DNA from: Styela clava
Taxonomy: Eukaryota
Direction: 5' to 3'
Assembly (NCBI RefSeq): GCF_964204865.1
Contig: NC_135263.1
Location: 9,300,001 to 9,364,000, forward strand
DNA: 64,000 nt
Numbering within the stretch: position 1 is the first letter of the stretch; each line of letters opens with the position of its first letter. Both the position numbers and the translations under genes were made by a program. Of this stretch, positions 3,215 through 34,340 are shown piece after piece. The notes under the pieces are model-generated. The model was not told where the DNA came from and did no database searches. It saw only the letters and a list, made by a program, of their open reading frames with translations.

Positions 3215-6200
3215 TTAACACCTAGCAATGAAGCCAACTGGGGCTGTTTGCGTCGCCTCAGCCAACTTTCTTCAAGTTTTACCGGGGGCTTTTCCCGTTT
3301 TAATTTATCGAAACATCGCGTTGTCAAGGCCAACAAAGAATACCTCAATAGTTATTCAAGATTTGCCTGGTTGGGGTGTTGCCGCCGATGTACTTTGCAT
3401 GATCAGGCTACATCAATCGTTGATGTTTCCTATTCTATGTTTTATTCGAGCATATCTTGTGACCTTACCACTGGGTAAATGTTTACTGAAACATAAAACT
3501 GTTACCATTCTGTACAAAACACTTCCTTAAATTGTAGTACGTGATGGGGAGAACAGCTATAGCGTATATTTCAAGCCCACTCGCGCGTGTAATTTTTGAA
3601 TTGATTGTTGAAATCGAAAACTTCCTGTGGTCCGCTCCCTGGTTAATTAAATTTGATACCAAAACTAAATCACTACCTGGGAAATCAAATAAAAATAAGT
3701 GAAATGAAACATGTATTACAAAAACTTTAATACTAAATGTTTCAAAACATACCCAACTTGTATATATATATACTTCAAATTATGCATACTGTTGTCGATA
3801 TTAATTTTTGAATAAATTTCATGAAAAAAATTGTCGTAATTCGTATCCAAAAGAAGTAATTATTTATCTTTTGCACTGTAAAAAATGTACAAATTAATTT
3901 AATTAACGATTGGCATTTTCACTGAAATTCAGCTTATCAATAATAAAAATTTGGTCTTTAGTCTTAAGAATATATAAATCACAATAGCATGAGAACTTTT
4001 ATTTATCATTTAGTAACAACAAGAGAGCTATGCTCCAATATGTGGACACGGAGGGCAAAACGAAATATTTTATCATCAATTCCCCGAAAAACATATGCGG
4101 TAAATCACCAGTACCTGAATCAGGGTAACGGTACAGGGACCGTCACAGTATTTTTCCCAGGTCCTGTGACGATGATCTATTCTTCGTGATTCGATTTCAA
4201 CGTGAATTGAAATACCAGGTGACCCGAGTCACGTCATAACACACAAAACAAATCCCATAGAGCTCACAGAAATATTGGAAATGAATAAAGCGAGAAAATA
4301 CAATCTTTCACCACTGAAAATTTCAAAGCAATTGGCCCAGTAATCAAAAAGAAAGGCGATTGGGGGAAAATTCCAAGAACAACAACAACATATTAAAAAA
4401 AAACGATCCGCAGGTTTACTCCGTGTTCAATAAATCAGTAAGAAGTTTGCGATGGAATAGTTTATCCGATTATGTACACAGGACTCCACACATGCTCGAC
4501 CATCTTCTATTCTTGGAGATCGTTCTCCCAGTCTCGTTGCCTTCGTTGTTGACCTGGAATTATAGGTCAACAACGTTGTTATTACAAGTTTTGAGGTTAT
4601 TAAAGGTTTGTTGCAATATTTGCACTTAGAGGGCATATAAAATATCTCGAGATTTATAGGGGAATAAAATTATATGTGTGTTCACCTTTCGAAACAATAA
4701 TTTGTACTTGATAACTAATAAGCTACTATCAACAATTCGGTTGGATGTAACAAAAGGATTTTTGTTTGTGAATTGTATATGTAAGTAGAAGACGGAAACT
4801 TTTAGAGTGGAAACATGTTCATTTCCTTGGAAATTGGTGTTGGATATACTACAACAGAGAATATCATTATCTTCCGAAAATTGTCTAATTATTAACTGCA
4901 ACTTGATGTCGTGATTTATATTTGTTGTCTTGTGTTTAAGTTTACCTTCATTTCCAAATGTTTCTGAAGATTTGAACTCAACTTCAACTGTGTTTCCAGC
5001 TCCCAGTATTATTTTATCAGCTTCTACATTATTAGTATTGAAGGTGTGGCCTGCAGACAGAAAAAGCCTTGTTATGAAAAAAACAGTACCGTTGTACAAC
5101 ATCTTATGTATGTATTCTCATTTGGTTTGCCCAGTTGAAGGGACAACCCAATGATTTTAGAAATCTATGATATAATTCGGAATCGAATAGGTTTACAAAA
5201 TTGTTATTTCATAATGTCAAGATTTGAACTACGTAGCGCTAAAGCAATAATAGGGCTAAAAACAGTTCACACTAATCATAAGGAACACAGTTGAGTTCAC
5301 ACTAAGCACAATGAACACAATTAGAATCTTCAGGATAAGGTCGGCCACGCGGAGAATCATGTTTTTTGCGGTATAGTTTGCGAATTCCAGTCAAAGCATT
5401 TTGCTAAATCATGGATTCTGTCTTCGTAATACTGCATAACTGGTCTTCAATTCATACAGGTGTAAAATTATTTTAATTTTCGAATCAAATTATGAGACGG
5501 TAAATGAGCGCTAGAGAATTGAGTAAGTACCGAAATGGCTTTTGCGAAGACAAACTTTTTCACTTACTTGACTTTGAAGGTTTTACTTGTGAGAGATCCA
5601 CTTTCGGAAGAGCTAAATTGAAATTGAAAGCTAAATTACGGGTTCCTTTTCAAAGTTTAATTAAATCAATGACAATCAAGAAAAGCATATAGTTTATAAT
5701 TTCAAAATATGTATATACATCAGTTGCAACGCATTGAATTGATAAAATTATTCTCAAAATGAACCATAGTACAGTCGGTGGTTTTACTCTGGTATTCAAA
5801 CGAAATGAATCAGTTCAAGGTTAGTTGAGTTAAAGTATTTGTATAATGCCAAAGATTTTATCATTATTGCATTTGAAGAGAATGATAAAATTTTAATTCA
5901 GCAATAACTTTTCTACTATATATATGCAACACCTGGTTTTTGCTCAGTGTTTTTGAGCGTAATATGGTTCCCACTGCCAGCAATCAATTCTTTTGTTTTC
6001 AGATCCCCGAGGTTGAATACTATGACGTAAATTATTAAATAAACGATTGGTGTATGTACTGGTAAATTCCAGGTTACAGGTTTTGTAACGTTTTAGAAGT
6101 GACAGTAGAAATATATTTATGACACAATATTCCACCAGTTGGATCGATTTATAAGTTTTCTTTTAAAAATAGGACTACAATTTTTTTACCATTTTACTGT

Positions 6201-6365
6201 GAGACAAGTTTTAGGCCCTGAACAGCACAAGAAGTAGAAAAATTAAAACTTATAATGTCTTCATACCTACGATACCACATTATAATTTAAAATTTGTTGT
6301 GCAATTGACGTTATAGAATACCCTACATATTTACCATTATTTCCGGGTGTATTCGATTCTGCCAT
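3215..6365 (-). pseudogene. Decayed multi-exon gene, copy A; N-terminal RHIM-like exons, possible NLR remnant
   Basis: ATG at 6365 (MAESNTPGNN). GT-AG phase-1 exons 6019-5933 (FNLGDLKTKELIAGSGNHITL), 5645-5568 and 5050-4946 (HTFNTNNVEADKIILGAGNTVEV) have splice sites and frame conserved in copy B. Stops and frameshifts occur elsewhere. The product identity is inference. Confidence 0.5.
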
Positions 6366-7116
6366 TGTTAATTCTGCTTTGCCGATCCTTACACTCAATA
6401 CAGCCGATTGGGGCTAATGCTTATGATGGCAGCCACCGCTACTTCTGATAAAATACAGTACATATCACGATATTTGACCCCGGACTTCCCCCGTTTTAGT
6501 TCTTAAAACACGGGTCGTCTATGATCTTCACAATGTTTTTGCTCAGTTTTCCGTTTCCCTTGCGTGTGCCGCACATAACTAAACACTTCCTCAAAATGAG
6601 TACACAATGGGTAAGACAACACAACGACTATTTACACTATTACACAACAGACTTGGAAACCTTAAACCCATTTGTGTGTGCTATTTTTAATACATACACT
6701 AGGCCTCAGATGATTAGTATGAAACTTGTGACTCACTCGATACTTGGGTTGAACTTACCAAAACTGAATCACACAGACTCACTCTGTACACAATGTAAAA
6801 TTATGTTCCAAATGTTAGACCCCTGTCTAATTCATCTACTACTAAATAATATTCCAATTTCAGAGTGTATCTAACTTCGTTACAGCAAAAATTCTCTAAG
6901 ACTGAAGAAGCCATGGAAGTATACAAGTCCTACCTGGTTTTCCAGCAGTAAAAACAGTCACACAGGCATGCAAGCAGTTTAACTATAAATTAATATAAAT
7001 AATTATGTGACAGCTTGTGGCACTAACTTGTGATACTTCTGGTCGCATTTGAATATTAATTGTCCTCAGAATTTCACGCAGATCCTGGCAAATTGATCAT
7101 CAACATTACTGTAGAT

Positions 7117-7566
7117 CAGGGGTCGGCAACCTTTTGTCGCTCGCGGGCCAAAATTAAAGGTTGCAAATTGGCGGGCCGCACATATTTTTAGAAAGTTAAA
7201 AAATCTAATGGATGACCGACGAATCACATTTTATCACACAGATCAGAAGTTAAATTTTAAACAGCGCGCGAAGACTGACCATTTGAATATTTTTTGCGCC
7301 ATTAAACCCTTTGCACTTAGCATCAACTTTTCTGCGTTTTGTTGCCATTTGTCTAACTAAATTATAGACTCATTAAACGAGTAATTGTGAATTATATACT
7401 TGTTACGTTATAATACAATTCAGTCTAACGTAAATTCTTTTGCGTAAAGAATATAATCGTCAAAACAGCTATAATTTGTTACTATAATGAAGTGAAGCGT
7501 CGCGGGCCGGATTATATTGCTCCGCGGGCCGAATCCGGCCCGCGGGCCGTAAGTTGCCGACCCCTG
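7117..7566. mobile_element. Complete non-autonomous hAT element (MITE)
   Basis: TIR CAGGGGTCGGCAAC / GTTGCCGACCCCTG, exact 8-bp TSD CTGTAGAT (7109-7116, 7567-7574), and CGCGGGCC subterminal motifs. Confidence 0.92.
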
Positions 7567-8134: not shown

Positions 8135-11100
8135 AGTTACACCTAACAATAAAGTCAACTGTTTGTGTCGCTTCAGCCATCTATTTACAAGTTTTACTGA
8201 GAGCTTTTCCCGTTTTCGTTTCTCAAAAACATTGCGTTGTTAAAGTCAGCAAAGAATACCTTAATAGTTCACGATTTGCCTGGTTGGATGTTGTCGCTGA
8301 TTACCCCTCTCGTGCATGGGACTGCACACAGTGGTGGGATTCAGCTGGTTCGCACCGGTTCTATAGAACCGTCTCACGGAATTTTACAAAATCAGCGAAC
8401 CGGTTAGCATTAATAGTTACTGTCAAAGTTCTGTTTGTAACTGAACCGGCTGAAAAATATGACTCTTGTGAAGAAACCGGCTGACAAAAAAATTGAATTC
8501 CCCAACTGACTGCACATATACTTTGCATGGTTGAGCTACATCAATCGTTGATTTTTCTCATTCATTTTTTTATTCGAGCGTATCTTGTGACTTCACCACT
8601 AGGTAAATGTTTACTGAAACACGAAACTGTTACCAGTCGGGCAGTCTGTATATTGCGTGATGAGGAGAACAGCTATAGCGTATATTTCAAGCTCAATCGC
8701 ACCTCTTATTTTTGAATGGATTGTTGAAATCGACAATTCCTCATAGTCTGCTCCCTTGTTAAATTCGATACTAAAATTAAATCACACAAACACAGAATAT
8801 TAGATTGAATACAAATGAGTGAAATATGAAATTATTACTGAAACTTCAATATGAAATGTTTCAAAACATACCAAACTTCTATAGATACTTCAAATTATAC
8901 ATAATGTTGTTGATATTAGCTTATGAATAAATGTCATAAAAATAAATTGTCGCAATACGACAATAAAAAATACTTGAAGAGAAAAGCGATTTTTTTCATT
9001 AGAATAGGAAGAAAAATTTCAAGAACAACATAATAAGAGAACGAAATATAGGGCCACTCTGTGTCCAATAAATCAGGAAATAGCGTAAGTTTTGTATGTA
9101 AAGTTTATGACGGAAAAGTTTATCTTATTATGTACACAGGACTCCACATATACTCGTCTACTCTTGGAGAAAGTTTTCCCAACCATGTTGACCTCGTGGT
9201 TTACCTGAAAGTTGTTATTACAAGTTTCGAGGTTAAAGGTTTGTTGCAATATTTGCTATCTTAAGATTAATAGGAAAATATTTTATAAATGTGTCTAACG
9301 TTTAAAACAATTATTTGTACTCGATAATTAATGAGTTACCATCAACAACTCGGTAGGATGTAACAAAGGATTTTTCTTCGTGAGTTGTATATTTATGTAG
9401 AAGATGAGAACTATTAGAGTCGAAACGTTCATTCTCTTCAAAGTTGGTTTTGGATTTATTACGAAAGAAAATATCATTATTTTTAAAAAATGATTCAATT
9501 ATCAGTTTTATAAGAATTTTGATATCTGCACGTGGTGATTTATATTCATAGTCACGAATTTAGTTCACCTTCATTTCCAGTTTTTTTGGAAGAATTGTAT
9601 TTAATTTCAACTATGTTTTCACACTCCATTTCTGTTTTATCAGATACCGCATCATTCCGCACAATAAAGATGTTTCCTGCAGGTGGAAGCCGTGTTAATA
9701 AAAATACAGAAAAATATAATACCATTGTACAAAATCTGATAGAAACCAAAAATACTTATTTTGTCTTCTCAGATGAAAGAAATAAACAATGATTTCAAAA
9801 GTCTATGAATTAATTCGGAACCGAATAGGTTTATAAAATTGTTATTTCACAATGTTAAAAGTTAACCTACACAAAGTTAAAGCAATATTGAACTCAAAAA
9901 TAGTTTACACAGGCCACAGGAACACAATTGAGTTCACACTATAAGCACGTACAACACAGTTAAAATCTTCACCAAAGGTCGGTTTTTGAGTTATCGTCTG
10001 CTAATTCCAGTCAAAGCGTTTTGCTAATTCATGGATTCTGTCTTCGTAACTGGTCTTCAATGCACTAAAGTGTCGGATTTTTTTCTATTGTTCAATTTAA
10101 TTATGTGACGCTAAACGTGCTCTAGTCATGAAAATTAAACGAACTGATTGAGTACCGATAATAGCTTTTGCGACAATAACTTTTTTCACTTACTCGACTT
10201 TGAAGGTTTTACCTCAGGGAGATCCACTTTCGAAAGAGCTGAATTAAAATTTAAAGATAAATGAAGGTTGTCTATTAAAGTTTAATTCAATCAATGACAA
10301 GCAAGAATAGCATATAGTTTATATTGCCAAAATATAATATACATCAGTTCCATCGCAATAAATCGATGAAATGAAACATAGTACAATCAGTGGTTTCACT
10401 TTGGTCTTCGAACGGAATAAATCAAACTAAGGTTAATTGAGATAAAATATTGGGATCAAGACAAATAAAATAAAAAAAACAAAAATACTGATAATTTGAT
10501 AATTACAAAAATCATATTTCACGTCAGATTTTTCTTAATGTGAGAAAACCATATAAAAGATTTTATTATGTGTAGTGTCCTAAGAGATGTGTTTAAAAAA
10601 CGACTCCGTATGCATATTTAGCAGTCAATCAAACGATACATATGTCTGAAGAAAAGTAATATATATATAAAACATTCTTGCGGAGAGTACTACGGAAAAT
10701 GATTCAAGTAGCAAAAATTTTATTATTATTGCTTATGAATAGTATATGATAAAATTTCAATTCATCAATAACCGTTTCTAATATATACGATACCTGATCC
10801 TTGCTCAGTGTTTTCATGTGTAATATGGTTCCTACTGCCAGCAATCAAGTGTTTTGTTTTTAAATTCCCAAAGTTGAATACTACGACGTAAATTAATAAA
10901 CAAAATATAAGTCTATGCACTGGTGAATTCCAGTTCTCAGGTTCATTAACGTTAGGACCGTTAAAAGTGGCAGTAGAAATATGCTTCTGATACAATATTC
11001 TATCTGTTGGATCTATTTATAAGTTTTCTTTTAAAAAACGACGACACAGGTATTTACCATTTTACTGTGAAGCAAGTTTTAGATGTTGAATAGCACAAGA

Positions 11101-11244
11101 AGTTGGAAAATTAAAAGCCACACGGCGTCATATCTACGATTCCATATAGATAAAAATGAATTCTAAATTTGTAGTGCAATTGACGTTATAAAAGATATTT
11201 CTTACATACATACCATTATTTGCGGGTGTACTCGATCCTGCCAT
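8135..11244 (-). pseudogene. Decayed multi-exon gene, copy B
   Basis: ATG at 11244 (MAGSSTPANN). Exons 10880-10794 (FNFGNLKTKHLIAGSRNHITH) and 9676-9569 are homologous to copy A. There is an in-frame TAG in the YEDRIHELAKRFDWN* segment (~10001), an internal deletion and a MITE insertion. Confidence 0.5.
8329..8508. mobile_element. hAT MITE inserted in duplication copy B
   Basis: TIR CAGTGGTGGGATTC / GAATTCCCCAACTG, exact 8-bp TSD ACTGCACA (8321-8328, 8509-8516), and AACCGG subterminal repeats. Absent from copy A. Confidence 0.85.
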
Positions 11245-12034
11245 TGTTAATTCTGCTGTGCTGATCCCTACACACAATACAACCGACTGCAGCTAATGAT
11301 TATGATGGCCACCACTGGTACTTCGGATAAAATACGGTACATTCTTGAGATTGAACCCTGGACTTCCCCCGTTCCAGTTCTGAAAAAAACATGGGTTGGG
11401 TAAGCTTTTCACGATGTTTTTTTCGCTTCCCTTGCGGAACTAAACACTTAACTAAACGCTTCCTCAAAATTAGTACACAATGGGTAAGACAACACAACGA
11501 CTATTTACAGTTTACACTATTACACAACAGACTTTGAAACCTTAAAACCATTTGTGTGTGCTATTTTTAATACATACACTGGGCCCAGGTAGAAATTGTT
11601 GAAATAGGAAACTCTTTGTGACCTCCTTGGGCTGAACCCCCGTGCGCAAGACTTGATACATGCATGATATAAAGAACCAAAATTTCGATGTAGATGACCG
11701 AAACAATCACACCAAAATCACGAAACATACTTCAAGCCCGAATAAAATACTAAAAATTTAAAAAAATCTGCTTATAAACTCATAAGAGCGGGACGCAGTA
11801 AACAGCCTGGCCACATTCTCAGCCTATTAGAGTATTACACTACTTTGTCCAGTGGGTACCGCTAACAAAGTATCGAACTGCTACGAAAGGGTATTATGAC
11901 TTTAAAATCTTTATAAGAAGCCATCAGAAAATGCCAGGCATACGTTATGCATGAATAGGTATAGGTTAGATAGATATTACATACCGTTGCCAATTTGAGC
12001 ATATCATGTGTTCTTGTGTACCTACAAAATTCGG

Positions 12035-12430: not shown

Positions 12431-14461
12431 CTGAACGGTTGTTGTTGTTTTATTTTACAGAAATAGAGATAGGATATGACTCGGCGCAAGATCGAGATTG
12501 TCCTGAATGGATCATGATAATTTCGGGCAAAGCTCAGCATTTAAAAATCGAACGAATCATCTAAACATAAAGCGTCGACTAATCGAGAAAGAGACTTGAC
12601 ACGACACTATAAGATAATTTTGAGCGAGTCCTCGGAATAGCAAAAAAAATCCAGTGAATAAAGTTATACCACACCCTTCATTTTGTTTGGAAAAAATTCT
12701 CTAGTTTTTTTGCGGCAGTAACTTGAAAATGAGCCGTGCTGATGTCGATGTATAGTTGATAACAAATAAGCATAGGATTGATTTTCTCATTTATCTGGGG
12801 GGAGGAAAGTCGACATGGCGACTGAATTATATGGCGTAACACGCCTTTCGCCGTGTTGATATTCTATGACAGTACGACAGTATTGTACGATACCTCCAAG
12901 TCCAGAGCATTTTATCTACAAGTCATGCAAACCTAGATTTGTATTTCGTTGTTTAGATCTTTACACAAGCATCACTTGTATCTGAACTGAGTATATTTCT
13001 GGTACTCGATTTAATGAAAATCATGTGAGAAAACATGAGGTTTTAAAGGGTGGGGAGTTTGTAAGGGTATTTCACTTTGAGAGAATTGTGTTTTCTGCCA
13101 ATCCATTTGGGCAAAATTATTCTAACGACGAATTCTCTGAAAAAAATTAATTTTGCACAATCACATCTTAATCGTAGTTCCAAGGTAACTGTTTTACACG
13201 TAACATTGAAATGTTTTAGTCTAAATTTATTTGAGCTATAATAATGGCGTTACAGAGAAGTAATTTGTAAACTGATTGTAAAAGTTTAAAGAGACAAATA
13301 TAAACCCCCAAAGAAAATAACTTCCCGAAACAGGAGTCGTCTAAAATAGATGGTAACCCGTAGAAGTTGACTGACAAGTTCAATTGTATTGTTACGTTAG
13401 TAGAAGAACCTGCAAATCGACAGACCTGAACTACTATAGTAGTTCACTTATTGTTAGAATGGAATTGATCACACAAATTATATCACACAAATCACAAGTA
13501 TGTTTTTTGCAATAATTTGTGACCTGGTGGGCGACCGCAAAAACACGACTTTGTGAGCTAAGTATGTTCTTTATAATATCTACTTAATTATGAATTATTA
13601 TTGTAGTTTCTGATGACAAATCGATCTTTACGTTTTGTCATATCAACCAATTTGAAAGTAAATTTTGTTTACAATCAATTATCTTATTACACACCAATAC
13701 TTTTGAAATACTCATCGTAATTTTATATAAAAGAGTGATCGATAATACTACTAAAACGGGAATAGTCATGTAAAAAAGTCTCCTATGAACTGCCCACATT
13801 TGTGAAAAAGATACGAAGAAAGATAGAAAAACTTTTCTTTTAAATTTTGTGAATTCAAAACTATTTCACTTCAAAGCCTAGCGTTGGTAAACACGCTTGA
13901 CTATTGTTATTGTCTAATGCAAATACGGGACAAACAATTTGACAAATGCTTCCAATAAAGCTTGTTTAATTTGAAATGAGATCAGCCCCTACGACATACA
14001 TAAAGCTAACTAGATCAAATATTCCCGTTGTATATCCATATTTGCGGGCGACAATGAGAAGCCGCGAGTAAAAACATTTTTCTACTATTTGTCACCACAT
14101 AGATTCGGTTAACTCAGTATTGCGCTGAGGTGACAGAAATATTTAATATGTTGATTTTCAGCAACCAAATTTTTGAACGTTCGGAGCGTCAAAAATTTAG
14201 CATTTGATTTGTAATAAATAATTAGCAATGCAAATTTGCATTAAACTAGACAAACCGCAAAGAAGATTATATAGGTATATAAAAAGAAATATAAATATTA
14301 TATTGTACCGAATTCTTTGTTTATATATAGTATGGATTACTCAACAAAAAGTTTTCTTGATAAGTAATCAAGGCACGCAACTTGTTTCTTGTTCTCAATA
14401 GTGTTTGTACTGAAAACTCTGATATCCTTTTTTTACAAGCTTACGTTTGTATTGCCAAGGC

Positions 14462-17246
14462 ATGGAAATTCGAGCGGAAGCCGTGAATAATGCAGCTTAT
14501 TCTGGTACGAAAAACAAACAACCCAAAGAAGTATTCGAATTAAAGAAAAAGATTGGATTATGGCGCGGGGTTTCTATTCTTGCTGGAATTATGGTCGGTT
14601 CTGGCATATTTTTGTCTCCCGTTGGTGTGCTGGCCGGTACCAATGGTAGTGTTGGAATAAGTTTAGTACTCTGGGTTGTCTGTGGCTTATTCTCAGGTCT
14701 GGCGGCATTGTGTTATGCTGAACTCGGAACAACTGTAGTAGAATCTGGAGGTGACTTTGCATATTTTAATGCAGCTTATGGAGGACCCGTTGCTTTCGCC
14801 TTTTCTTCGGCGTATCTTTTTGTTATGTACCCGACGGGGAATGCAGCTAAAGCCGTTGCGTTGGGAACATATATTGCTACACCTTTTTACAATGGAGATT
14901 GTGCTCCACCGACCACAGCTATCAAGTTTGCGGGAGCTGCAGCAGTTCTTGTGGTGACGTTCGTGAATTACTTCAGTGTTCGAAATGCTGCTAGAGTTCA
15001 GGTTGTATTCACCATTGCTAAATTTGTCGGGTTGGCGGCTATCATAATTGGTGGAATTACACGCCTGGCGGATGGAGACCCAGTTGCAAATTCTAATTTT
15101 GTGAATGCGTTTGACCCCAAAGCATTAGCCGGTCTCACTGCAACGCAGATTGGATTAGCATTCTACCAGGTATACAATTCTTTGTGCGGTTTTACTATCA
15201 GTTTAAAAGTTCGACCATGCAAAACTTACATTGTCTTGTTAAGAAAATTACATACAGTTGTCTCGAAACTTGTTGTTAGTGTAAATGTACATTAACAGGG
15301 ACTTTTTTCGTATGATGGATGGGCAAATTTGAATAGAGTGACAGAAGAAGTTAAAGACGTGGGAAAAACTCTGCCAAGATGTATTATGATAGCCATCACT
15401 GGAGTGACTGCATTTTATGTTCTCGTTAACATAGCTTATTTTTCGGGTAATTTTTCATTCTAAGCTAAATAATGATAACTATAAATTGTTTTTGTGAAGA
15501 CCTAAATATTTTGAGTGATGATTTTATTTATATATAGCGTCGACAGTAAGCGATAATAATTACAACAATGCATGAAAATGTGGCCGTTAAAAATTGAATT
15601 AGTATGTCCTCATTGACATTTTCCTGATTAGCCAACGTCACGGAAATAGCACGTGCATAAATCCATTGGAATAAAGTCTATGGTTCCAAAAATAATTAGG
15701 TGTGTGATGGTCCCCAAAAATTTACTTCCGAAGTCACTCATCTGACCAAATATTGAGTAGATTTGACATTTTTCAGTTCTCACTCCTGAAAACATTCTGT
15801 CTTCAAAAGCAGTGGCTGTTACATTCGGGTATCGAGTTTTTGGATCTTTTGGTTGGATAATGCCATTGGCTGTGTGCCTTTCTATATTTGGATCACTGAA
15901 CGGATCTTGTTTAGCTGGTGGAAGAATTGCATTTGCTGCAGCTAGGAGAGAGCACTTGCCTCAAGTAATCTGAAACGCTTTTATACCTTACTTGACAACA
16001 ACATTCATTTATATATCTATTTTTATGAATCCACTTTTATAATGAATAATTCTTATCGACTGGCAGTATCTCTATAAGATATTTAAAATATATTAGTATA
16101 ACAAGATTTTGCTCTGATAACGCAAAATATGAGTGACAATAGTGATGAATATCATAAGTTTTAACTGCTACAAGTCACGTGAAAACTCTTGGCAAGAAAT
16201 GTATATGATTATTAATATCAGATATTCAGCAAATTTATATTCTATCAACATAAACTTTGCTTCTTTTTTTTTATAAAATTTGAAGACGTTTTTCTGTAAT
16301 ATAAATGGCAGAATATCTTATCATTATTTTTTTTTAGATATTTTCTATGATTCACGTCGAGCATATTACTCCGGGACCATCTCTCCTTATTCATAACTTA
16401 CTCGTTTTAATAATGCTTATACCTGGTGATTTTGACACTCTTCTCAACTCCATGAGTTTTGCAACTTGGATATTTTATGGTTTGGGAGCAGTCGGAGTTC
16501 TTGTTCTACGAAAAACAAGACCTGACTTGCCGAGGCCTTACAAGGTTACATAAATATTTTTTTAGATTTAAATCTCACTTTTTGAAGTGATCACTCAAAC
16601 TTATATCTATATCAAATATGGTGTAAATAAATAGTTACATGATTAAATACACTTCAACGCTATATACTACTCTGGTTGAAAGGACTAAATGTTTGAATTT
16701 TAAATTATAGTAAATTTTGGGACCTCCTGAAGTATGCGCACCAAGATGACGCACAACCTGAACTCAGATTGTGTACTAGGTTAGAGTTCAGTTCGTGCGA
16801 CATCTTGGTGCGCATACTTCAGGAGTACCAAATTTTGTACTGTTCATGTATTTGCCTTGAATGAATAAAAGATTTTACATATACTTATACAAGGAAATTT
16901 GAGAAGTCCAAAGTACAAACTTCTTGAAAAATAACAAAACATAAAATCATTAAGAGTCCAATTCTTGTAATTTATTTAACAGGTTCCTGTTGTTATACCT
17001 GTCATTGTCGCTATATTTACAGTTTATCTGACAATTGCTCCATTAATCGAAAACCCGGATATTTCTTACTTGTATGGTGGAATATTCATACTTTGTTCGC
17101 CGATTTTCTATTTCCTGTTTGTCTACAAAAAGCTTCGTCTGCCAGGAATGGATCACTTCACAATATTTTTGCAAAAATTTCTTGATGTTTCACCAACGGA
17201 TTGGGAAGACAAGTTGGCAATAAATGCTTCTGATAAGAGTGAATAA
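14462..17246 (+). CDS. SLC7A9: SLC7 L-type amino-acid transporter light chain, b(0,+)AT-like, copy 1 (intact, 504 aa)
   Basis: Exons 14462-15169, 15299-15446, 15777-15964, 16338-16544, 16983-17246, all GT-AG and in frame. Motifs GSGIFLSP, ALCYAELGT, PFYNGDCAPP (heavy-chain Cys), GLFSYDGW (Asp as in b0,+AT) and PDLPRPYKVP. Exact orthology is uncertain. Confidence 0.93.
16720..16829. mobile_element. 110-bp palindromic MITE (Merlin-like: GG termini, 8-bp TSD) in intron 4
   Basis: TIR GG..CTCCTGAAGTATGCGCACCAAGATG and TSD AAATTTTG (16712-16719, 16830-16837). Confidence 0.85.
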
Positions 17247-18840
17247 TTAGTACATCGCACAATGTACATTTTCATAAACATTGACATTAATAAACAGATA
17301 TTAAACATACTTTTTAGTTTGTATGTGCTAACTTGGCTACTTATATGCTTATGAACTATATTTCATTTCACTTTCAATTGTTCTGTGATTCCACTGATTT
17401 TGTATAAATGTGTATGGTGATTTTGTCGTCTGGAATTCTTCAGATCATAAATCAAAATATTAGCGCTATGTTCAGTTTGCGTTTACGTTAACTTAAAGAA
17501 TATCTTTCAGATGAAATAAATCCACGATATAGTTTTAGAGAGATTTCTGCTTATAAACTTAACTCTGATCCCACTTGTTAAAGTACCATAATAGGTAAAA
17601 AACACTAATCTTTGTTGGTTATTGCATGAAACATTCATGCGAAAGCGAGGTAGTCAATTTGTACCCCGAAAGACGTGATGCGTCATTTTGTAAATGGATC
17701 TGTACACGAAATGTAAACAATTGTTACTTCGTTACTAAACGCATATTTTTGTCTAAGACTTGTTTACAAAGTGGGGTGATTTTTCTCGTCAAAATGAAAT
17801 ATGATGTGTTAATATTTTATCTTGCATAAGATAATGGTAAACTTTATATTGAATCTGTATACAGTATATAAATTTATATGCAGCCTTCTACAGAATGTGA
17901 CGCACCGAATTTTATATGATTGCAGAAAACAAATATACTTCATAAGGCCACATTACCTATGTACACAAACTAATGCCATTATTTCAATACGGATGAAAAA
18001 GTGCTTCACAAATTAGAATTTCGAAAAAAAAAACTTGGCATTGATGTTAATATTTGTTTGACAATAAACGCAAAATTTAGTTCAAATACTGCTGTCCAAT
18101 TATGTCCTGAAAGTATTGTTCAAACAAACGATCTTTTAGCGTAGGAAGATAGATATAGCTAGAACATACCAGGCAACTATAGCAGTATTGGCAGAAGAAA
18201 AATTAATTTCAGAATCAGCAAATGAAATTTCCATTATTTCAAGATTTTAATCATTAAGAGACGAGATATTAAATGTCATTGAAAAAGAACGTTAAAGGTT
18301 CAACCTTAAATTAATATTTGTAACGATAGTTTAATTTTTTTAAATAACCAAAATTTGAGGTCAAATTCATTTATGGAATCAGTTACTATATATTTCGCGT
18401 GTAAAATCACAACAAAAAAACTCTATTCGGCAAAGTTTATCTTCTATACCCATATCATAGTTGTGCAGTTTCCGGTCATTATTTTCCAGAAAACTGATAG
18501 CTTTCACGAACTAAGGAGTTTTTCACCTAAATAAGGAGTGGAAATAAAATCAATTTGCGATCCATATATATTATGAATAATAGAAAGGGTAGAACTACTA
18601 TAGGAGTTCACTTATTGTTAGGATGGAATTGATCACACATATCGTATTATGTTTTTTGCAATAATTCATGCCCATGCGAAGTCCCCAAAAACACGACGGG
18701 TCACGGCTCTGTGGGCTCAGTATATTCCTTGTAATTGCTACCTAATATAAATAAAGTACTTGTTCCTTGTATTTAATAGTGTTTGAACTGAGAACTCTGA
18801 TATTCTTTTATTTACAAGATTACGTTTCTATTGGCAAGGC

Positions 18841-21650
18841 ATGGAAATTCGAGCAGAAGCCGTGAATAATGCAGCTCATTCTGGTACGAAAAACAGTCAA
18901 CCCAAAGAAGTATTTGAATTACAGAAAAAGATTGGATTATGGCGCGGGGTTTCTATTATTGCTGGGATTATGGTCGGTTCTGGCATATTTTTGTCTCCCG
19001 TTGGTGTGCTGGCCGGTACCAATGGTAGTGTTGGAATGAGTTTAGTACTATGGGTTGTCTGTGGCTTATTCTCAGGTCTGGCGGCATTGTGTTATGCTGA
19101 ACTCGGAACAACTGTTGTAGAATCTGGAGGTGACTTTGCATATTTTAATGCAGCTTATGGAGGACCCGTTGCTTTCGCCTATTCTTCGGCTTATCTTTTT
19201 GTTATTTACTCGACGGGGAGTGCAGCTAAGGCCGTTGCGTTGGGAACATATATTGCTACACCTTTTTACAATGGAGAATGTGCTCCACCGACCACAGCTG
19301 TCAAGTTTGCGGGAGCCGCAGCCATTCTTGTGGTGACGTTCGTGAATTACTTCAGTGTTCGAAATGCTGCTAGAGTTCAGGTTGTATTCACCATTGCTAA
19401 ATTTGTCGGGTTGGCGGCTATCATAATTGGTGGAATTACACGCCTGGCGGATGGAAACCCAGTTGCAAATTCTAATTTTGTGAATGCGTTTGATCCCAAA
19501 GCATTAGCCGGTCTCACTGCAACGCAGATTGGATTAGCATTCTATCAGGTATACAATTCTTTGTGCCGTTTTACTGTCAGTTAAGAAGTTCGACCATGCA
19601 AAACTTACATTGACTTGTTAAGAAAATTACATACAGTTGTCTCGAAACTTGTTGTTAGTGTAAATGTACATTAACAGGGACTTTTTTCGTATGATGGATG
19701 GGCAAATTTGAATAGAGTGACAGAAGAAGTTAACGACGTGGGAAAAACTCTGCCAAGATGTATCATGATAGCCATCACTGGAGTGACTGCCTTTTATGTT
19801 CTTGTTAACATAGCTTATTTTTCAGGTAATTTTTCATTGTAAACTGAATAATGATAACTATAAATTATTTTTGTGAAGATTTAAATATTTTTAGTGATGA
19901 TTTTTTTATGGCGTCGAAAGTAAGCGATATTAATTACAACCACGCATGAAAATGTGGCCCCTGAAAAATTGAATCGGTATGTCTTCATTGACATTTTGCT
20001 GACTAGCCAACGTCATGGAAATAGCATGTGCAATAAATAGCATGTATTCATTGGAATGAGGTCCATGGTTCCGAAAATATTTAGGTGTGTGATGGTCTCT
20101 AAACATTTAGTTCCGAAGTCACTCATCTGACCAAATATTGAGTAAATTTGACATTTTTCAGTTCTCACTCCTGAAAACATTCTGTCTTCAAAAGCAGTGG
20201 CTGTTACATTTGGGTATCGGGTTTTTGGATCTTTTGGCTGGATAATGCCATTGGCTGTGTGCCTTTCTATATTTGGATCACTCAACGGATCTTGTTTAAC
20301 TGGTGGAAGAATTACATTTGCTGCAGCTAGGAGAGGGCACTTGCCTCAAGTAATCTGAAACGTGTTTATACCTTGCTTGACAACAACATTCATTTATATA
20401 TTTATTTTTATGAATCCACTTTTATTAGAATGAATAATTCTTATCGACTGGCAGTATCTCTATAACATATTCGATATATTTTAGAGCTTAGTATAACAAG
20501 ATTTTGCTCTGATAACGCATAATATGAGTGACAATAGTGACGAATATCATAAGTTTTAACTGCTGCAAGCAAGTTATGTAAAAACTCTTGGCAAGAAATG
20601 TATATGATTATTAAGATTAGAGATATTCAGCAAATTTATATTCTATCAACATAAACTTTGGTTCTTTTTTTTATAAAATTTGCAGCCGTTTTTCTTTAAT
20701 AATAAATGGCAGAATATTGATCATTATTTTTTAGATATTTTCTATGATTCACGTCGAGCATATTACTCCGGGACCATCTCTCCTTATTCATAACTTACTC
20801 GTTTTAATAATGCTTATACCTGGTGATTTTGACACTCTTCTTAACTCCATGAGTTTCGCAACTTGGATATTTTATGGTTTGGGTGCCGTCGGAGTTCTTG
20901 TTCTACGAAAAACAAGACCTGACTTGCCGAGGCCTTACAAGGTTACATAAATATTTTTTTAGATTTAAATCTTACTTTTTGAAGTGCTCATTCAAACTTT
21001 ATAGCTATATAAAATATGGTGTAAATGAATAGTTACGTGAATAAATACACATCAACACTATATACTACTCTGGTTAAAAGGAGTGAATGTTTGAGTTTTA
21101 AATTAGATGAATTTTGGGACCTCCTGAAGTATACGCGCCAAAATTGCGCACAACCTGAACTCAGGTTGTGTATCATGTTGAGGTTCAGGCTGTGTGACAT
21201 CTTGGTGCGCATACTTCAGAAGTACCAAATTTAAATTCAAGTACTGTCCATGTATTTGCCTTGAATGAATAAAGTATTTTAAAGATACTTATACAAGAAA
21301 ATTTGAGAGGTCCAACGTACAAACTTCTTAAAAAATAACAAAATATAAAATCATTAAGAGTCCAATTGTTGTAATTTATTTAACAGGTTCCCGTTGTTAT
21401 ACCTGTCATTGTCGCTATATTTACAGTTTATCTGACAATTGCACCATTAATCGAAAACCCGGATATTTCTTACTTGTATGGTGGAATATTCATACTTTGT
21501 TCGCCGATTTTCTATTTCCTGTTTGTCTACAAAAAGCTTCGTCTGCCAGGAATGGATCACTTCACAATATTTTTGCAGAAATTTCTTGATGTTTCACCAA
21601 CGGATTGGGAAGACAAGTTGGCAATAAATGCTTCTGATAAGAGTGAATAA
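18841..21650 (+). CDS. SLC7A9: SLC7 b(0,+)AT-like transporter, copy 2 (intact, 504 aa)
   Basis: Exons 18841-19548, 19678-19825, 20162-20349, 20735-20941, 21387-21650. Same exon lengths as copy 1 and highly similar, introns included. Confidence 0.93.
21117..21226. mobile_element. 110-bp palindromic MITE (co-duplicated copy)
   Basis: Same element and same intron position as 16720-16829. Confidence 0.8.
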
Positions 21651-22875
21651 TTAGTACATTGCACAGTGTACATTTTCATAAACATTGACATTAATAAACA
21701 GATATTAAACAATTAAACATACTTTTTAGTTTGTTTGTGCCAACTTGGCTACTTATATGCTTATGAACTATTTTTCATTACACTTTCAATTGTTCTGTCA
21801 TTCCATTAATTTCGTATAAATGTGTATGATTTTATCGTCTGGAATTCTTGAGATCATAAATCAAAAAATCGGAGCTATGTTCAGTTTGCGTTTACGTTAA
21901 CTTAAAGAACATCTTTCAGATGAAATAAATCCACGATATAACATTTTTTGTTGAATATGCAAAATAGAAAAAAATTTTGTGTTAGATTTTTTTACAAAAT
22001 TAATTTTTTTTTATGCACAATCAATAGTTTTAGGAAGATTTCTGCTTATAAACTTAACTCTGATCCCACTTGTTAAAGTACAATAATAGGCAAAAACACT
22101 AATCTTTATTGCATGAAACATTCATGCGAAAGCGAGATAGTCAATTTGTACCCCGAAAGACGTGATGCGTTAATATGTAAATGGATCTGTACACGAAATG
22201 TAAACAATTGTTACTTTGTTACTAAACGCATATTTTAGTCTAAGACTTATTTACAACGTGAGGTGATTTTTCTCGTCAAAATGAAATATGATGTGTTAAT
22301 ATTTTATCTTGCATAGATAATGGTAAACTCTTTATTGAATCTGTATACAGTATAAAAATTTATATGCAGCCCTCTACAAAATGTGACGTACCGAATTCTA
22401 TATGATTGCAGAAAACAAATATACTTTAAAAGGCCACATTACCTATGTGCACAAACTAATGCCATTATTTCAATAAGGATAAAAAAGTGCTTCACAAATT
22501 AGAATTTCGAAAAAAGAAAACTTGGCATTGATGTTAATATTTGTTTGACAATAAACGCAAACTTCAGTTCAAATCCTGCTGTCCAATTATGTCCTAAAAG
22601 TATTGTTCAAACAAACGATCTTTTTTTTTTCCTGGCGGATGGAAACCCAGTTGCAAATTCTAATTTTGTGAATGCGTTTGAACCCAAAGCATTAGCCGGT
22701 CTCACTGCCACGCAGATTGGATTAGCATTCTATCAGGTATACAATTCTTTGTGCCGTTTTACTGTCAGTTTAGAAGTTCGACCATGCAAAACTTACATTG
22801 CCTTGTTAAGAAAATTACATACAGGCGATACAGCTGTCTCGAAACTTGTTGTTAGTGTAAATGTACATTAACAGG

Positions 22876-23497
22876 TGTAGGTAATAAACGGTGCTATCAC
22901 CTAACTATGATGTGGAGTGATATCGTGTGATCCAATGTGCGAGTAACACCAGAAATACTTGAAAAGCCCGATCCCAAATAGTTCATTCAACATTTGTTGC
23001 TTTGACTTTATTGCATTATCGCAGTAGTAATGAACATCCATGAGTCAGTTTATTCCAGTTATTACACACAATTTAATCTAATTTATGAACATCACTCCAA
23101 ATATTGACTAAATAAATAAAACAAACATGAAAACATAACTTACAAAATAGCAAATTCCAAGAGCTAAACGACAGAAATGCGCTCACTAAAACCACTAAAA
23201 GAAGAGAGCGGCGTGCTGAAGAATTTACAGATTCCAGATTATTGGTCAGAATATACTGCCAAGTTGGCTCAATAAAATATATATTTGGGACTCCTCATGT
23301 ATTAACCATGTGGAAATAATTATTAGTATCAAATTTTGGATAGGAATCACTTCATTTAACTGAATATGAATGTACCACGCTTATGAAATTGAACGACTAT
23401 CGCAAGACTGGTATGATTGCGAAAATAGATATTACGAAACACTTTCCTGGAACACAACCTAGTGCCCATAATTAATATAAAGGGAACATTTCTCACA
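22876..23497 (-). mobile_element. Probable solo LTR
   Basis: Insertion absent from the paralogues, with TGT...ACA termini and an AATAAA ~130 bp from the minus-strand 3' end. The TSD is degenerate (ACAGG vs ACGG). Confidence 0.65.
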
Positions 23498-24938
23498 ACG
23501 GACTTTTTCGTATGATGGATGGGCAAATTTGAATAGAGTGACAGAAGAAGTTAACGACGTGGGAAAAATTCTGCCAAGATGTATCATGATAGCCATCACT
23601 AGAGTGACTGCCTTTTATGTTCTTGTTAACATAGCTTATTTTTCAGGTAATTTTTCATTGTAAACTGAATAATGATAACTATAAATTGTTTTTGTGAATA
23701 TCTAAATATTTTGAGTGATGATTTTATTTATGGCGTCGAAAGTAAACGATAATAATTACAACCACGCATGAAAATGTGGCCCCTAAAAATTGAATCGGTA
23801 TGTCTTCATTGACATTTTGCTGACTAGCCAACGTCACGGAAATAGCACGTGCAATAAATAGCATGTATTCATTGGAATGAGGTCCATGGTTCCGAAAATA
23901 TTTAGGTGTGTGATGGTCTCTAAACATTTAGTTCCGAAGTCACTTATCTGACCAAATATTGAGTAGATTGGACATTTTTCAGTTCTCACTCCTGAAAACA
24001 TTCTGTCTTCAAAAGCAGTGGCTGTTACATTTGGGTATCGGGTTTTTGGATCTTTTGGTTGGATAATGCCATTGGCTGTGTGCCTTTCTATATTTGGATC
24101 ACTGAACGGATCTTGTTTAACTGGTGGAAGAATTACATTTGCTGCAGCTAGGAGAGGGCACTTGCCTCAAGTAATCTGAAACGTGTTTATACCTTACTTG
24201 ACAACAACATTCATTTATATATTTATTTTTATCAATCCACTTTTATTAGAATGAATAATTCTTATCGACTGGCAGTATCTCTATAAGATATTCGAAAAAT
24301 ATTAGATCTTAGTATAACAAGATTTTGCTCTGATAACGCATAGTATGAGTGACAATAGTGACGAATATCATAAGTTTCAACTGCTGCAAGTCATGTAAAA
24401 ACTCTTGTCAAGAAATGTATATGATTATTAAGATTAGATATTCAGCAAATTTATATTCTATCAACATAAACTTTAATTCTTTTTTTTTTATAAAATTTGC
24501 AGCCGTTTTTCTTTAATAATAAATGGCAGAATATTGATCATTATTTTTTAGATATTTTCTATGATTCACGTCGAGCATATTACTCCGGGACCATCTCCCC
24601 TTATTCATAACTTACTCGTTTTAATAATGCTTATACCTGGTGATTTTGACACTCTTCTCAACTCTATGAGTTTTGCAACTTGGATATTTTATGGTTTGGG
24701 TGCCGTCGGAGTTCTTGTTCTACGAAAAACAAGACCTGACTTGCCGAGGCCTTACAAGGTTACATAAATATTTTTTTAGATTTAAATCTTACTTTTTGAA
24801 GTGCTCACTCAAACTTTATAGCTATATCAAATATATATGGTGTAAATAAATAGTTACATGATTAAATACACTTCAACACTATATACTACTCTGGTTGAAA
24901 AGACTAAATGTTTGAGTTTTAAATTATAGTAAATTTTG

Positions 24939-25048
24939 GGACTTCCTGAAGTATGCGCACCAAGATGGCGCACAGCCTGAACTCAGGTCGTGTACCAGGT
25001 TAGGGTTCAGGTTATGCGACATCTTGATGCGCATACTTCAGGAGTACC
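24939..25048. mobile_element. 110-bp palindromic MITE (co-duplicated copy)
   Basis: Same element and same intron position as 16720-16829. Confidence 0.8.
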
Positions 25049-26497
25049 TAATTTTGTTCTGTCCATCTATTTGCCTTGAATGAATAAAAGATTTTACATA
25101 TACTTATACAAGGAAATTTGAGAAGTCCAAAGTACAAACTTCTTGAAAAATAACAAAACATAAAATCATTAAGAGTCCAATTGTTGTAATTTATTTAACA
25201 GGTTCCTGTTGTTATACCTGTCATTGTCGCTATATTTACAGTTTATCTGACAATTGCTCCATTAATTGAAAACCCGGATATTTCTTACTTGTATGGTGGA
25301 ATATTCATACTTTGTTCGCCGATTTTCTATTTCCTGTTTGTCTACAAAAAGCTTCGCCTGCCAGGAATGAATCACTTCACAATATTTTTGCTAAAATTTC
25401 TTGATGTTTCACCAACGGATTGGGAAGACAAGTTGGCAATAAATGCTTCTGATAAGAGTGAATAATTAGTACATCGCACAATGTACATTTTTATAAACAT
25501 TGACATTAATAAACAGATATTAAACATACTTTTTAGTTTGTATGTGCTAACTTGGCTACTTATATGCTTATGAACTATATTTCATTTCACTTTCAATTGT
25601 TCTGTGATTCCACTGATTTTGTATCAATGTGTATGATGATTTTGTCGTCAGGAATTCTTGAGATCATAAATCAAAATAGTGGCGCTATGTTCAGTTTGCG
25701 TTTACGTTAACTTAAAGAATATCTTTCAGATGAAATAAATCCACGATATAACATCTTTTGTTGAATATGCAATATAGAATAAAATTGGTTTAAATTACAA
25801 ACTTTGCAAACTTGTGTTATATTTTTTCACAAAAAGAATTTTTTTTATGCACAATCAATAGTTTTAAAGAGATTTCTGCTTATAAACTCAACTCTGATCT
25901 CACCTGTTAAAGTACACTTCAATAATAGGCAAAAAAACACTAATCTTTGTTGGTTATTGCATGAAACATTCATGCGAAAGCGAGGTAGTCAATTTGTACC
26001 CCGAAAGACGTGATGCGTCAATATGTACATGAATCTGTGAACGAAATGTAAAAATTCATCCTTTGTTACTAAACGCATATTTTTGTCCAAGACTTGTTTA
26101 CAACGTGAGGTGATTTTTCTCGTCAGAATGAAATATGATGTGTGAATATTTTATCTTGCATAGATAATGGTAAACTTTATATTGAATCTGTATACAGTAT
26201 ATAAGTTTATATGCAGCCCTCTACAAAATGTGACGCACCGAATTTTATATGATTGCAGAAAACAAATATACTTTATAAGGCCACATTACCTATGTGTACA
26301 AACTAATGCCATCATTTCAATAGGGATGAAAAAGAGCTTCACAAAATAGACTTTTGACAGAAAACATTCGGCATTGATGTTAATATTTGTTTAACAATAA
26401 ACGCATTCTTCATTTCAGATTCTGGTGTCCAAATATGTCCAAAAAGTATTGTCCAAACAAACGAGTTTCTAACGTCAGAAGATCAATATAGCTAAAA

Positions 26498-27327
26498 CAG
26501 GGGTGGGCAACCTTTTTCGGCTCGCGTGTCAAAATCGGCTAAATTTAACGACAAATTCTCCCGCGTGCCGACCAAAATTAAAAACAACGCTTCGCTACTT
26601 TCAAAGCAAAAATACACAATAATAAACCTTTTAAACATATACAGACAGATTCACTATTCGGGAAAATATAAGTCCGACAATTAGATTTGATTACTAATCT
26701 TATTCAAATCAGTGAGCCCTTTGCTGCTGTAATACCGCTGATAGAGATGTTACATTGGATTTATATTTTGTAACTTTCAAAGAAATACACGAACTACTGG
26801 TTTCATCTTTTAGGCTACACCTGTTACAAGATTTGACAAAGTTCATAACGGAGAACAGAGATTCACAAGCATATGTAGATGAAACATGGAAAGTAATGCG
26901 GTTGCAAAGTTTTTAAGACACAAAAATCGGGAATGGCATCCCAATCACGCAATAGTTCGTTCACGCAATAGTTCGTTTTTTTTGAAAAAAAGGGTGGCAC
27001 AGACGAACTATATTACGTAAGAATGTAGCCAAGTGAATGATGCGCTCTTCTCGACAAAATTTTTCGAGAGCTCACTCATTTGTTACGTCATAATATATTT
27101 CTTTGTATCCAATGTCATGAAAGGACAAAAAGAGTTTAAATAAATAACAGATTGTTAACCAACGATATATAATGAATAAACGAATACCGAGTTTCATCAG
27201 ATAATCCAGAGTCTTGAAACTTTTTATCTGAAGAAGTATGATCTCGTTTCTGAGGCCTCGCTCGCGTGCCGCATAAATGGGCTCGCGTGCCAAGTTTGGC
27301 ACGCGTGCCAGGGGTTGCCCACCCCTG
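26498..27327 (-). mobile_element. Internally deleted hAT (SPIN/GTF2IRD2-like, Buster group) element
   Basis: TIR CAGGGGTGGGCAACC / GGTTGCCCACCCCTG and TSD AGCTAAAA/AGCTAGAA. The empty site is visible in the paralogous spacer near 18157. The minus-strand remnant STYACESLFSVMNFVKS..RCSLKDE...QQQRAH* is a transposase C-terminus. Confidence 0.9.
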
Positions 27328-27409
27328 AGCTAGAACTTATCAAGTAACTATAGCAGTATTGGCAAAAAGAAAACTAGTTTTCAGAACCATCAGATTACAC
27401 GCATACTAT

Positions 27410-27453
27410 GTTCAGGTTGTGCGCCATCTTAGTGCGCATACTTCTGGAAGTCC
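27410..27453. mobile_element. Half copy of the 110-bp palindromic MITE
   Basis: GTTCAGGTTGTGCGCCATCTTAGTGCGCATACTTCTGGAAGTCC. Confidence 0.65.
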
Positions 27454-27832
27454 AAATGTTCTGTATTTTAAGTTTTTAATTATTGAGAGACAAGATATTC
27501 CTAGCAAAAATACCGAAAGAACTGAAAAAGTCAATATAAGGTTTAACCTAAAATTATTATTTGTTATATGATTGCTTACATTTTTAAAGAGCCGTAATTC
27601 GAGGAAGTCAAATTCATTGGAAGAATCGGTTTATATATATTTCGCGTGAGAATTAAAAAACAAACTCTATTTGGCAAACTTTATCTTTTATAACCACATC
27701 ATAGTTGAGCAGTTTCCGGGTATTATTTTTCCAGAAAACTGATAGCTTCCATGGGCTACAGAGTTTTTCAATTTGCGATTCAATATTTATCATAAATAAA
27801 AGAAGAATAGTATGATATATATAGTAAACAAA

Positions 27833-34164: not shown

Positions 34165-34340
34165 TACTGAAATCAATAACGTGGCTTCATTTTCAATATT
34201 CAAAAATTATAATTTCATATATATGTTGTAACAGTTTTCTGAATATTCGAAATGCATGACATGAATTATTCAAAGTTTATCCTAACATGTTTAGTTTTCA
34301 CTTAGTTTTCGAGCCCATGATATCCAAGCCTTTGGCCTAA

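What the first reader, a model, noticed from the sequence alone, without database searches (positions are those of the whole stretch)
4946..6019. RHIM-like amyloid motifs, one per small phase-1 exon, in an unannotated duplicated gene
Seen: two frame-preserving cassette exons encode similar motifs, FNLGDLKTKELIAGSGNHIT (6019-5933) and FNTNNVEADKIILGAGNTVE (5050-4946). Their splice sites and frame are retained in copy B (10880-10794, 9676-9569). A third N/Q-rich stretch (QQTFNLETCNNNFQVN, ~9190-9255) follows. Known: RHIMs of RIPK1/RIPK3/ZBP1 have an N-terminal beta strand, then (I/V)Q(I/V)G-x-x-N-x-hydrophobic. Inference: IILGAGNTV and LIAGSGNHI fit hxhGxxNxh but lack the canonical Gln, so these are candidate non-canonical RHIM/amyloid signalling modules spread by exon shuffling.
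Basis: partly seen in the sequence, partly recalled or inferred. Interest (0 to 1): 0.7.

Follow-up and report, generated by a model that had tools for sequence, protein, structure and literature searches.

The report
Sea-squirt two-repeat stacking mini-protein
A sea squirt has a duplicated, spliced gene for a tiny protein built around two similar stretches that carry opposite charges at matching positions, so the stretches likely stack on each other as in fungal signalling amyloids; it does not match the standard RHIM motif, and its predicted role as a seed or brake for immune signalling is untested.

Summary
The exons are real but the gene was misread. Transcript contigs give two intact five-exon genes of 104 and 105 aa, annotated in RefSeq as uncharacterized Styela clava LOC120341130 and LOC120341600. 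The two motifs are a real repeat (p=0.0003). They fail RHIM membership: no Gln tetrad, wrong upstream register, no Pfam match. New here: in register, copy A's repeats pair opposite charges at 4 positions with no clash, and copy B swaps one pair and gains another (permutation p 0.003-0.012; 0 of 191 control pairs). That is the hallmark of HET-s-type two-rung beta-solenoids. Copy B's second core is degenerate. No orthologue was found and no partner with the motif near NLR, caspase, TIR or MLKL-like genes. Best reading: an effector-less, likely self-stacking beta-solenoid module; immune role inferred only. The scan earlier noted similar two-repeat small proteins in another sea-squirt genome (e1-7883353, unchecked).

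The parts
6335..6365 (-). Copy A coding exon 1 (ATG at 6365), phase-1 donor
   Evidence: product equals P0003 = XP_039265508.2
5933..6019 (-). Copy A exon 2, repeat 1; skipped in RefSeq isoform X2 (75 aa)
5568..5612 (-).
4946..5050 (-). Copy A exon 4, repeat 2
4507..4553 (-). Copy A exon 5 coding part to the stop; predicted helical tail at low confidence; 3' UTR contigs reach about 3800
11214..11244 (-). Copy B coding exon 1
   Evidence: (table 5c, one run); product equals P0002 = XP_039266072.2
10794..10880 (-). Copy B exon 2, repeat 1 (core kept; +5 G to R, +11 K to E)
10194..10238 (-). Copy B exon 3, linker
9569..9676 (-). Copy B exon 4, degenerate repeat 2 (core Gly lost; charges still complementary to repeat 1)
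9158..9204 (-). Copy B exon 5 coding part to the stop
9205..9255 (-).
6482..6491 (-). kappaB-like decamer about 120 bp upstream of the ATG, identical in B (11360-11369); weak hint only
   Evidence: 5 matches in the window, 4.15 expected
3218..6705 (-). Duplication unit A
8139..11585 (-). Duplication unit B, 71-79% identical to A

Best explanation
Two tandem, spliced sea-squirt genes encode small proteins without a signal peptide whose two 22-residue repeats carry complementary charges in register, so the repeats likely stack as a two-rung beta-solenoid that would grow into, or cap, an amyloid-like fibre, possibly as an effector-less seed or brake for immune signalling. Shown: gene structure, splicing, repeat similarity, charge complementarity. 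Inferred, in falling order of support: in-register stacking of repeat 1 on repeat 2 (about 0.6); polymerisation, because two rungs joined by a roughly 25-residue proline-containing linker leave open sheet edges (about 0.4); a regulatory role on a signalling assembly, with the one-repeat isoform X2 and the core-degenerate copy B as likely chain terminators (about 0.25).
For: Repeat similarity p=0.0003. Copy A: opposite charges at -4 K/E, -2 K/D, -1 E/K, +11 K/E, no same-sign pair, N over N at -9 and +6. Copy B: -2 K/D kept, +11 swapped to E/K, +5 G/G changed to R/E, -6 D/N swapped to N/D; 3 of the 4 positions that changed in both repeats are reciprocal or complementary. Offset 0 is the best of 17 offsets (net 7; next 5 at offset +5). 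Permutation p = 0.012 for A alone and 0.003-0.008 for A+B on polar positions only. Control: 0 of 191 equally similar 22-mer pairs in 17 NLR proteins reach 4 opposite and 0 same. The A/B register is backed by the DNA alignment. PMC4518210 (passages) reports this same anti-correlation of charges between repeats as the sign of in-register stacking in HET-s-related motifs. No hydrophobic N-terminal signal. Context only: the genome has at least 97 NACHT matches, NLR heads made of beta-rich repeats on phase-1 exons, 58 caspase-domain matches and an MLKL-like gene.
Against: The charge pattern was noticed by eye and tested afterwards, on only two paralogues. Copy B lost the core Gly and two core hydrophobics of repeat 2; dN/dS between copies is 0.73 overall and about 1.2 in exon 4 (few codons). 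No orthologue in 5.8 billion clusters or 1.84 billion representatives (the one other hit was a SUMO-repeat protein), so conservation across species could not be tested. No partner carries the motif: best scores 23 near caspases, 26 near NLRs, 20.5 near TIR genes, 17.8 near the MLKL-like gene, against 34-40 between true repeats. NLR heads do not match above shuffles (p 0.08-0.28; hhalign probability 0.3). The linker is longer and less Gly-rich than in HET-s-related motifs. The neighbours are not immune genes. Exon-2 skipping is in RefSeq but was not seen in the 3 RNA-type runs.
Confidence: 0.45

Rival explanations
1. The repeats fold on each other as a small closed beta-helix or beta-sandwich, or form a structural polymer of the bactofilin/adhesin beta-helix kind, with no signalling role.
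For: In-register charge pairs fit any parallel beta-helix. Several Atlas structure neighbours are families I recall as beta-helices (SufBD, DUF4097, LiaF-like, autotransporter), though at TM 0.27-0.45 on a pLDDT 0.39 model. No signalling partner was found. The likeness of the first half of each repeat to bactofilin coils is recalled, not tested.
Against: No Pfam beta-helix family matches; only two rungs with a long proline-containing linker; all Atlas rows are under the bar.
Confidence: 0.22
2. A largely disordered, lineage-specific protein whose repeats are short linear motifs, or are drifting after duplication; the charge pattern is chance.
For: AlphaFold2 pLDDT 38-39 (alignments of 1 and 4 sequences); GRAVY -0.9; dN/dS near 0.7-1.0; 9 of 105 residues differ between two B alleles; no orthologues.
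Against: both frames intact and spliced; the 3 differences between two A alleles all lie outside the repeats.
Confidence: 0.2
3. The motifs are true, diverged RHIMs or cryptic RHIMs, and the protein is a RHIM-only inhibitor like Drosophila Pirk.
For: G at +3, N at +6, hydrophobic at 0 and +8; cryptic RHIMs are described as VxxG without Gln, and Pirk as a RHIM-like inhibitor (PMC13506858, passages). Scores on a bacterial RHIM-like profile are slightly above shuffles (p 0.03-0.04).
Against: No PF12721 match. Position -6, critical in RIPK1/3 (10.64898/2026.02.19.706818, passages), is D or N. Scores are -33 to -34 bits against a median of 56 for real motifs, and the upstream half is at chance (p 0.37-0.47). 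RHIMs are reported absent from tunicates (PMC4262963, parts 1-2 of 4).
Confidence: 0.1

Closest known systems
[quoted passage not shown]
   Same: Two ~21-22-residue pseudo-repeats in one chain, each with a Gly after a hydrophobic strand; complementary charges at equivalent positions; Asn over Asn; a tail with Gly and aromatic residues after repeat 2.
   Different: No HeLo domain, no adjacent NLR gene, spacing 46-47 against 27-39, linker Pro/Lys/Ser-rich, inner hydrophobic at -5 instead of -6, no Pfam match; each repeat on its own phase-1 exon.
RHIM of RIPK1/RIPK3/ZBP1/TRIF (PF12721), fungal PP, bacterial BASS3
   Same: h-x-x-G-x-x-N-x-h core; aromatic at -10 and small residue at -3 as in the bacterial motifs.
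   Different: No Gln at +1, no Gly at -1, polar residue at -6, many charges; no signalling domain in the protein.
Drosophila Pirk/Rudra (RHIM-like inhibitor of Imd signalling; PMC4262963, PMC13506858)
   Same: Small protein with repeated RHIM-like segments and no effector domain: a functional analogy only.
   Different: No sequence relation shown; no target identified; no Imd-type cryptic RHIM partner found here.
Styela NLR N-terminal beta-rich repeats (P0020-P0050)
   Same: Beta-rich units on symmetric phase-1 exons of 29-61 codons; by-eye likeness to the first half of each repeat.
   Different: No significant similarity; they lack the Gly-x-Gly-Asn half.

Membership tests
RHIM (PF12721) | Core tetrad (V/I)-Q-(V/I/L/C)-G | tested here: not met
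   Cores have Ile at +1 in 3 of 4 repeats and Glu in the fourth; tetrad definition from 10.64898/2026.02.19.706818
RHIM (PF12721) | Aliphatic residues at -8, -6, 0, +2 | tested here: not met
   -6 is D or N in 4 of 4 repeats; +2 is Ala in repeat 1; positions derived from residue numbers
RHIM (PF12721) | Gly at +3, Asn at +6, hydrophobic at +8 | tested here: met
   3 of 4 repeats; B repeat 2 lacks the Gly
RHIM (PF12721) | Pfam profile match | tested here: not met
   this locus is not among the 2 genome matches at E<=10 (10 candidates scored)
RHIM (PF12721) | Forms cross-beta fibres and binds a partner RHIM | not testable with these tools
   needs bench work
Cryptic RHIM (insect Imd type) | VxxG core without Gln | tested here: inconclusive
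   I/L-x-x-G fits loosely; four letters are not diagnostic (PMC13506858)
BASS3 / PP | G-h-Q-h-G signature and upstream register | tested here: not met
   Signature from 10.1101/2020.01.06.895854; profile of 77 non-redundant bacterial motifs gives -33 to -53 bits against a median of 56 (motifs were fetched by a recalled pattern and their BASS3 gene context was not checked)
HET-s / HRAM | Two pseudo-repeats of about 21 residues | tested here: met
   (copy A); degenerate in copy B
HET-s / HRAM | Complementary charges between repeats at equivalent positions | tested here: met
HET-s / HRAM | Gly 19 and hydrophobics at 5, 8, 10, 16, 18 | tested here: not met
   Gly, 16 and partly 5, 8, 18 fit; position 10 (-6) is D or N
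HET-s / HRAM | Loop of 6-18 residues, Gly-rich | tested here: not met
   about 25 residues, Pro/Lys/Ser-rich
HET-s / HRAM | N-terminal HeLo-type domain and adjacent NLR with one motif copy | tested here: not met
   10-residue N-terminus only; no NACHT match in the window or the 50 kb fetched beside it
HET-s / HRAM | Pfam PF11558 match | tested here: not met

The most novel reading that the evidence does not exclude
Ascidians, reported to lack RHIMs, have evolved their own HET-s-like two-rung amyloid motif, built one rung per phase-1 exon, and this effector-less protein seeds or caps an amyloid signalling fibre; exon skipping (one rung) and the core-degenerate paralogue tune the switch.
Probability: 0.2. 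Interest if true: 0.8.

Novelty: new variant of a known kind. Interest (0 to 1): 0.52.

Why it matters
Tunicates are the closest invertebrate relatives of vertebrates and are reported to lack RHIMs (PMC4262963) and RIPK1 homologues (PMC12119088), yet this genome has many NLRs without death-fold heads and an MLKL-like gene. A 104-residue protein with a HET-s-type charge signature is a small, direct test of whether chordates use a second kind of functional amyloid: the reciprocal charge swaps between the paralogues name the exact pairs to test. If it does not assemble, it is an orphan gene pair of modest interest.

Tried and rejected
Complex prediction of four copies gave no verdict (score 0.02). 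AlphaFold2 models were too poor to use and the fold search found nothing at E<=0.001. PDB sequence searches gave only chance hits. Atlas feature hits were 0.79-0.80, in the range of shuffled proteins. No run was on record as RNA; contig depth was not used to rank expression. Genome pattern scans: relaxed core 30 matches against 20 for the control pattern (all 28 non-self loci scored, best 34 in a long ORF that looks like a retrotransposon frame and 30.5, with about 16 and 73 expected by chance at 34 and 30); second pattern 97 against 38, inflated by a dispersed repeat (50 of 94 non-self matches scored, best 24.8; the other 44 were dropped by eye: most for stop codons or repeat membership, a few for the fetch limit); canonical RHIM pattern 18 against 13, none in a plausible RHIM exon. 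The L022 match lies 2 kb past the stop of a kinase-SH3 gene and was rejected. The best Pfam RHIM hit (L019, E=4.3) runs into a splice acceptor and looks intronic. NLR-head homology was my own lead and failed; one partial signal remains (B exon 4, p=0.017), not repeated. Only 20 upstream stretches of 97 NACHT matches and 39 NLR proteins were examined; 40 stretches around the 58 caspase matches; 20 around 14 of the 15 TIR matches. Metagenome scan: 242 pattern hits, none confirmed. DNA similarity of exon 2 to exon 4 with flanks is not significant (p=0.14). Literature: no paper with LOC120341130; searches listed nothing on this gene or on a tunicate amyloid signalling motif. bioRxiv supplements were not visible, and motif figures in the papers could not be seen.

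Full report
Gene structure. The window holds a tandem duplication on the minus strand, about 3218-6705 (A) and 8139-11585 (B), 71-79% identical. Transcript-type contigs give five coding exons per copy, every intron GT-AG and phase 1. For A all four joints occur in 4 of 4 runs from 3 studies, and in 3 of 3 RNA-type runs but not in the DNA-type run, which reads straight through. For B three joints occur in 3-4 of 4 runs and the first in one listed row. The spliced frames are intact, 104 and 105 residues, and equal RefSeq XP_039265508.2 (LOC120341130) and XP_039266072.2 (LOC120341600) of Styela clava, both 'uncharacterized'. RefSeq isoform X2 of A lacks exon 2 exactly; I did not see that joint, and contigs drop rare forms.

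The repeat. Exon 2 and exon 4 of A align without gaps over 22 residues (score 40, p=0.0003); B exon 2 also matches A exon 4 (p=0.008), but B exon 4 no longer matches exon 2 (p=0.21-0.80). Numbering the first core residue 0, the shared pattern is F(-10), N(-9), hydrophobic at -5, small at -3, hydrophobic at 0 and +1, G(+3), N(+6), hydrophobic at +8. There is no signal peptide-like stretch. dN/dS between copies is 0.73 (NG86), about 0.47 in exon 2 and 1.2 in exon 4, on few codons.

Is it a RHIM? No by membership. Pfam finds nothing in the exons or proteins. The tetrad Gln is absent. Deep mutagenesis of RIPK1/3 puts the critical aliphatic residues at -8, -6, 0, +2 (10.64898/2026.02.19.706818, passages); here -6 is D or N in all four repeats. 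Against a profile of 77 bacterial RHIM-like motifs the A repeats score about -34 bits (real motifs: median 56), above shuffles only at p 0.03-0.04 and at chance in the upstream half. The core fits the loose VxxG of cryptic RHIMs (PMC13506858, passages), which is too short to decide. PMC4262963 (parts 1-2 of 4 read) says tunicates appear to lack RHIMs; PMC12119088 (passages) found no tunicate RIPK1 homologue.

What it works like. Laid in register, the two repeats of A pair K/E, K/D, E/K and K/E at -4, -2, -1, +11, with no same-sign pair and N over N twice. In B, -2 is kept, +11 is swapped to E/K, +5 changes from G/G to R/E, and -6 swaps D/N to N/D: 3 of the 4 positions changed in both repeats are reciprocal or complementary. 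Offset 0 is the best of 17 (net 7; offset +5 gives 5). Permutation p is 0.0004 over all positions and 0.012 over polar positions for A alone, 0.003-0.008 for both. Among 191 equally similar 22-mer pairs within 17 NLR proteins none shows 4 opposite and 0 same pairs. PMC4518210 (passages) gives inter-repeat charge anti-correlation as the sign of in-register stacking in HET-s-related motifs. The test was made after I saw the pattern and rests on two paralogues, so it raises the odds of stacking without proving it, and it cannot tell an amyloid from another parallel beta-helix. HET-s family membership fails on register, loop length, effector domain and neighbour (membership table).

Mechanism. Shown: a small, spliced, two-repeat protein with complementary repeats. 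Inferred: repeat 1 stacks on repeat 2 as a two-rung beta-solenoid; open edges let further molecules add with alternating rungs; a one-rung isoform (repeat 2 only, net -3) and copy B (core Gly lost) would stack badly and so act as caps. With no effector domain, a signalling role needs a partner. That step is the weakest.

Search for relatives and partners. No further copy in the genome by protein or DNA. No homologue among 5.8 billion clusters or 1.84 billion representatives (the second hit is a SUMO-repeat protein); a two-sequence profile has little reach, so fast-evolving orthologues may be missed. Prompted by earlier notes of this scan, I looked at NLR, caspase and TIR genes, and then at MLKL. 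The genome has at least 97 NACHT matches; about 16 of 39 NLR proteins fetched begin, by eye, with beta-rich repeats instead of a death fold, on symmetric phase-1 exons in the 3 loci checked. Their likeness to the first half of our repeat did not survive testing. Profile scans around caspases, NLRs, TIR genes and the MLKL-like gene peaked at 23, 26, 20.5 and 17.8, below the 34-40 between true repeats. Three genome-wide pattern scans gave nothing beyond chance. These searches are partial (counts under Tried and rejected). The neighbours are a Wnt-like gene on one side and an amino-acid-transporter array on the other (names recalled from motifs). A kappaB-like decamer sits about 120 bp upstream of both ATGs and an IRF-like site in A only, but such sites are common in the window.

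Verdict. It is a new variant of a known kind if it assembles. No paper on the gene was found (listings only). Other papers: 10.1101/2020.01.06.895854 and PMC12881547 were seen as passages. Interest 0.52.

Noticed in passing
P0020-P0050; L110, L114, L116 (G000 C8, C3): Many Styela NLRs start with tandem beta-rich acidic repeats on symmetric phase-1 exons (up to about 13 copies of a 33-residue unit in P0050) and no Pfam domain in the head of 5 of 5 scanned.
   Followed up: partly
G000:C13:11912200-11916900 (-), L244, L250, L251: MLKL-like gene: PF22215 match over the cut-off (33.9 bits) followed by kinase-like exons, in a lineage reported to lack RIPK1 homologues.
   Followed up: partly
L127, L131, L132, L134 (G000 C6, C1): Single-exon caspase-family ORFs with short Asn/Ile-rich heads; L127 has a twice-repeated stretch before the caspase domain. 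None matches the motif studied here.
   Followed up: partly
L019 (G000:C14:4570399, -): Best Pfam RHIM hit of the genome (16.6 bits, under the cut-off) has an IQLG core but runs into a splice acceptor; probably intronic.
   Followed up: partly
window 6482-6491, 6548-6557, 11360-11369: kappaB-like site kept in both promoters and an IRF-like site in A only; 6572-6705 and 11445-11585 are 95-96% identical, far above the rest of the duplication.
   Followed up: partly
window 4546-5596: Low-depth unspliced contigs in RNA-type runs differ from A by about 4-7%: another haplotype or a third copy absent from this assembly.
   Followed up: no
window 3218-3843 and 8139-8959: A non-coding block downstream of both genes is 78-85% conserved; no open frame is kept in both copies.
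   Followed up: partly
window 14380-34200 (+): Tandem array of amino-acid-transporter-like genes (SLC7 type, recalled), with three 92-94% identical recent copies, one lacking its first exon region, and two older copies.
   Followed up: no
window 38000-57300 (-): Exons of a Dachshund-like gene (name recalled from the motif at 57014-57226, not tested).
   Followed up: no
window 3840-4430, 7115-7565, 8330-8530: Dispersed repeats (MITE-like) inserted in the 3' UTR of A, between the copies and in the 3' block of B.
   Followed up: no
G000:C2:7854500-7870900 (+), L235-L236: Gene region with three kinase-like domains (two with degenerate catalytic motifs) and a terminal SH3-like exon, inside the NLR-rich arm of C2.
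   Followed up: no
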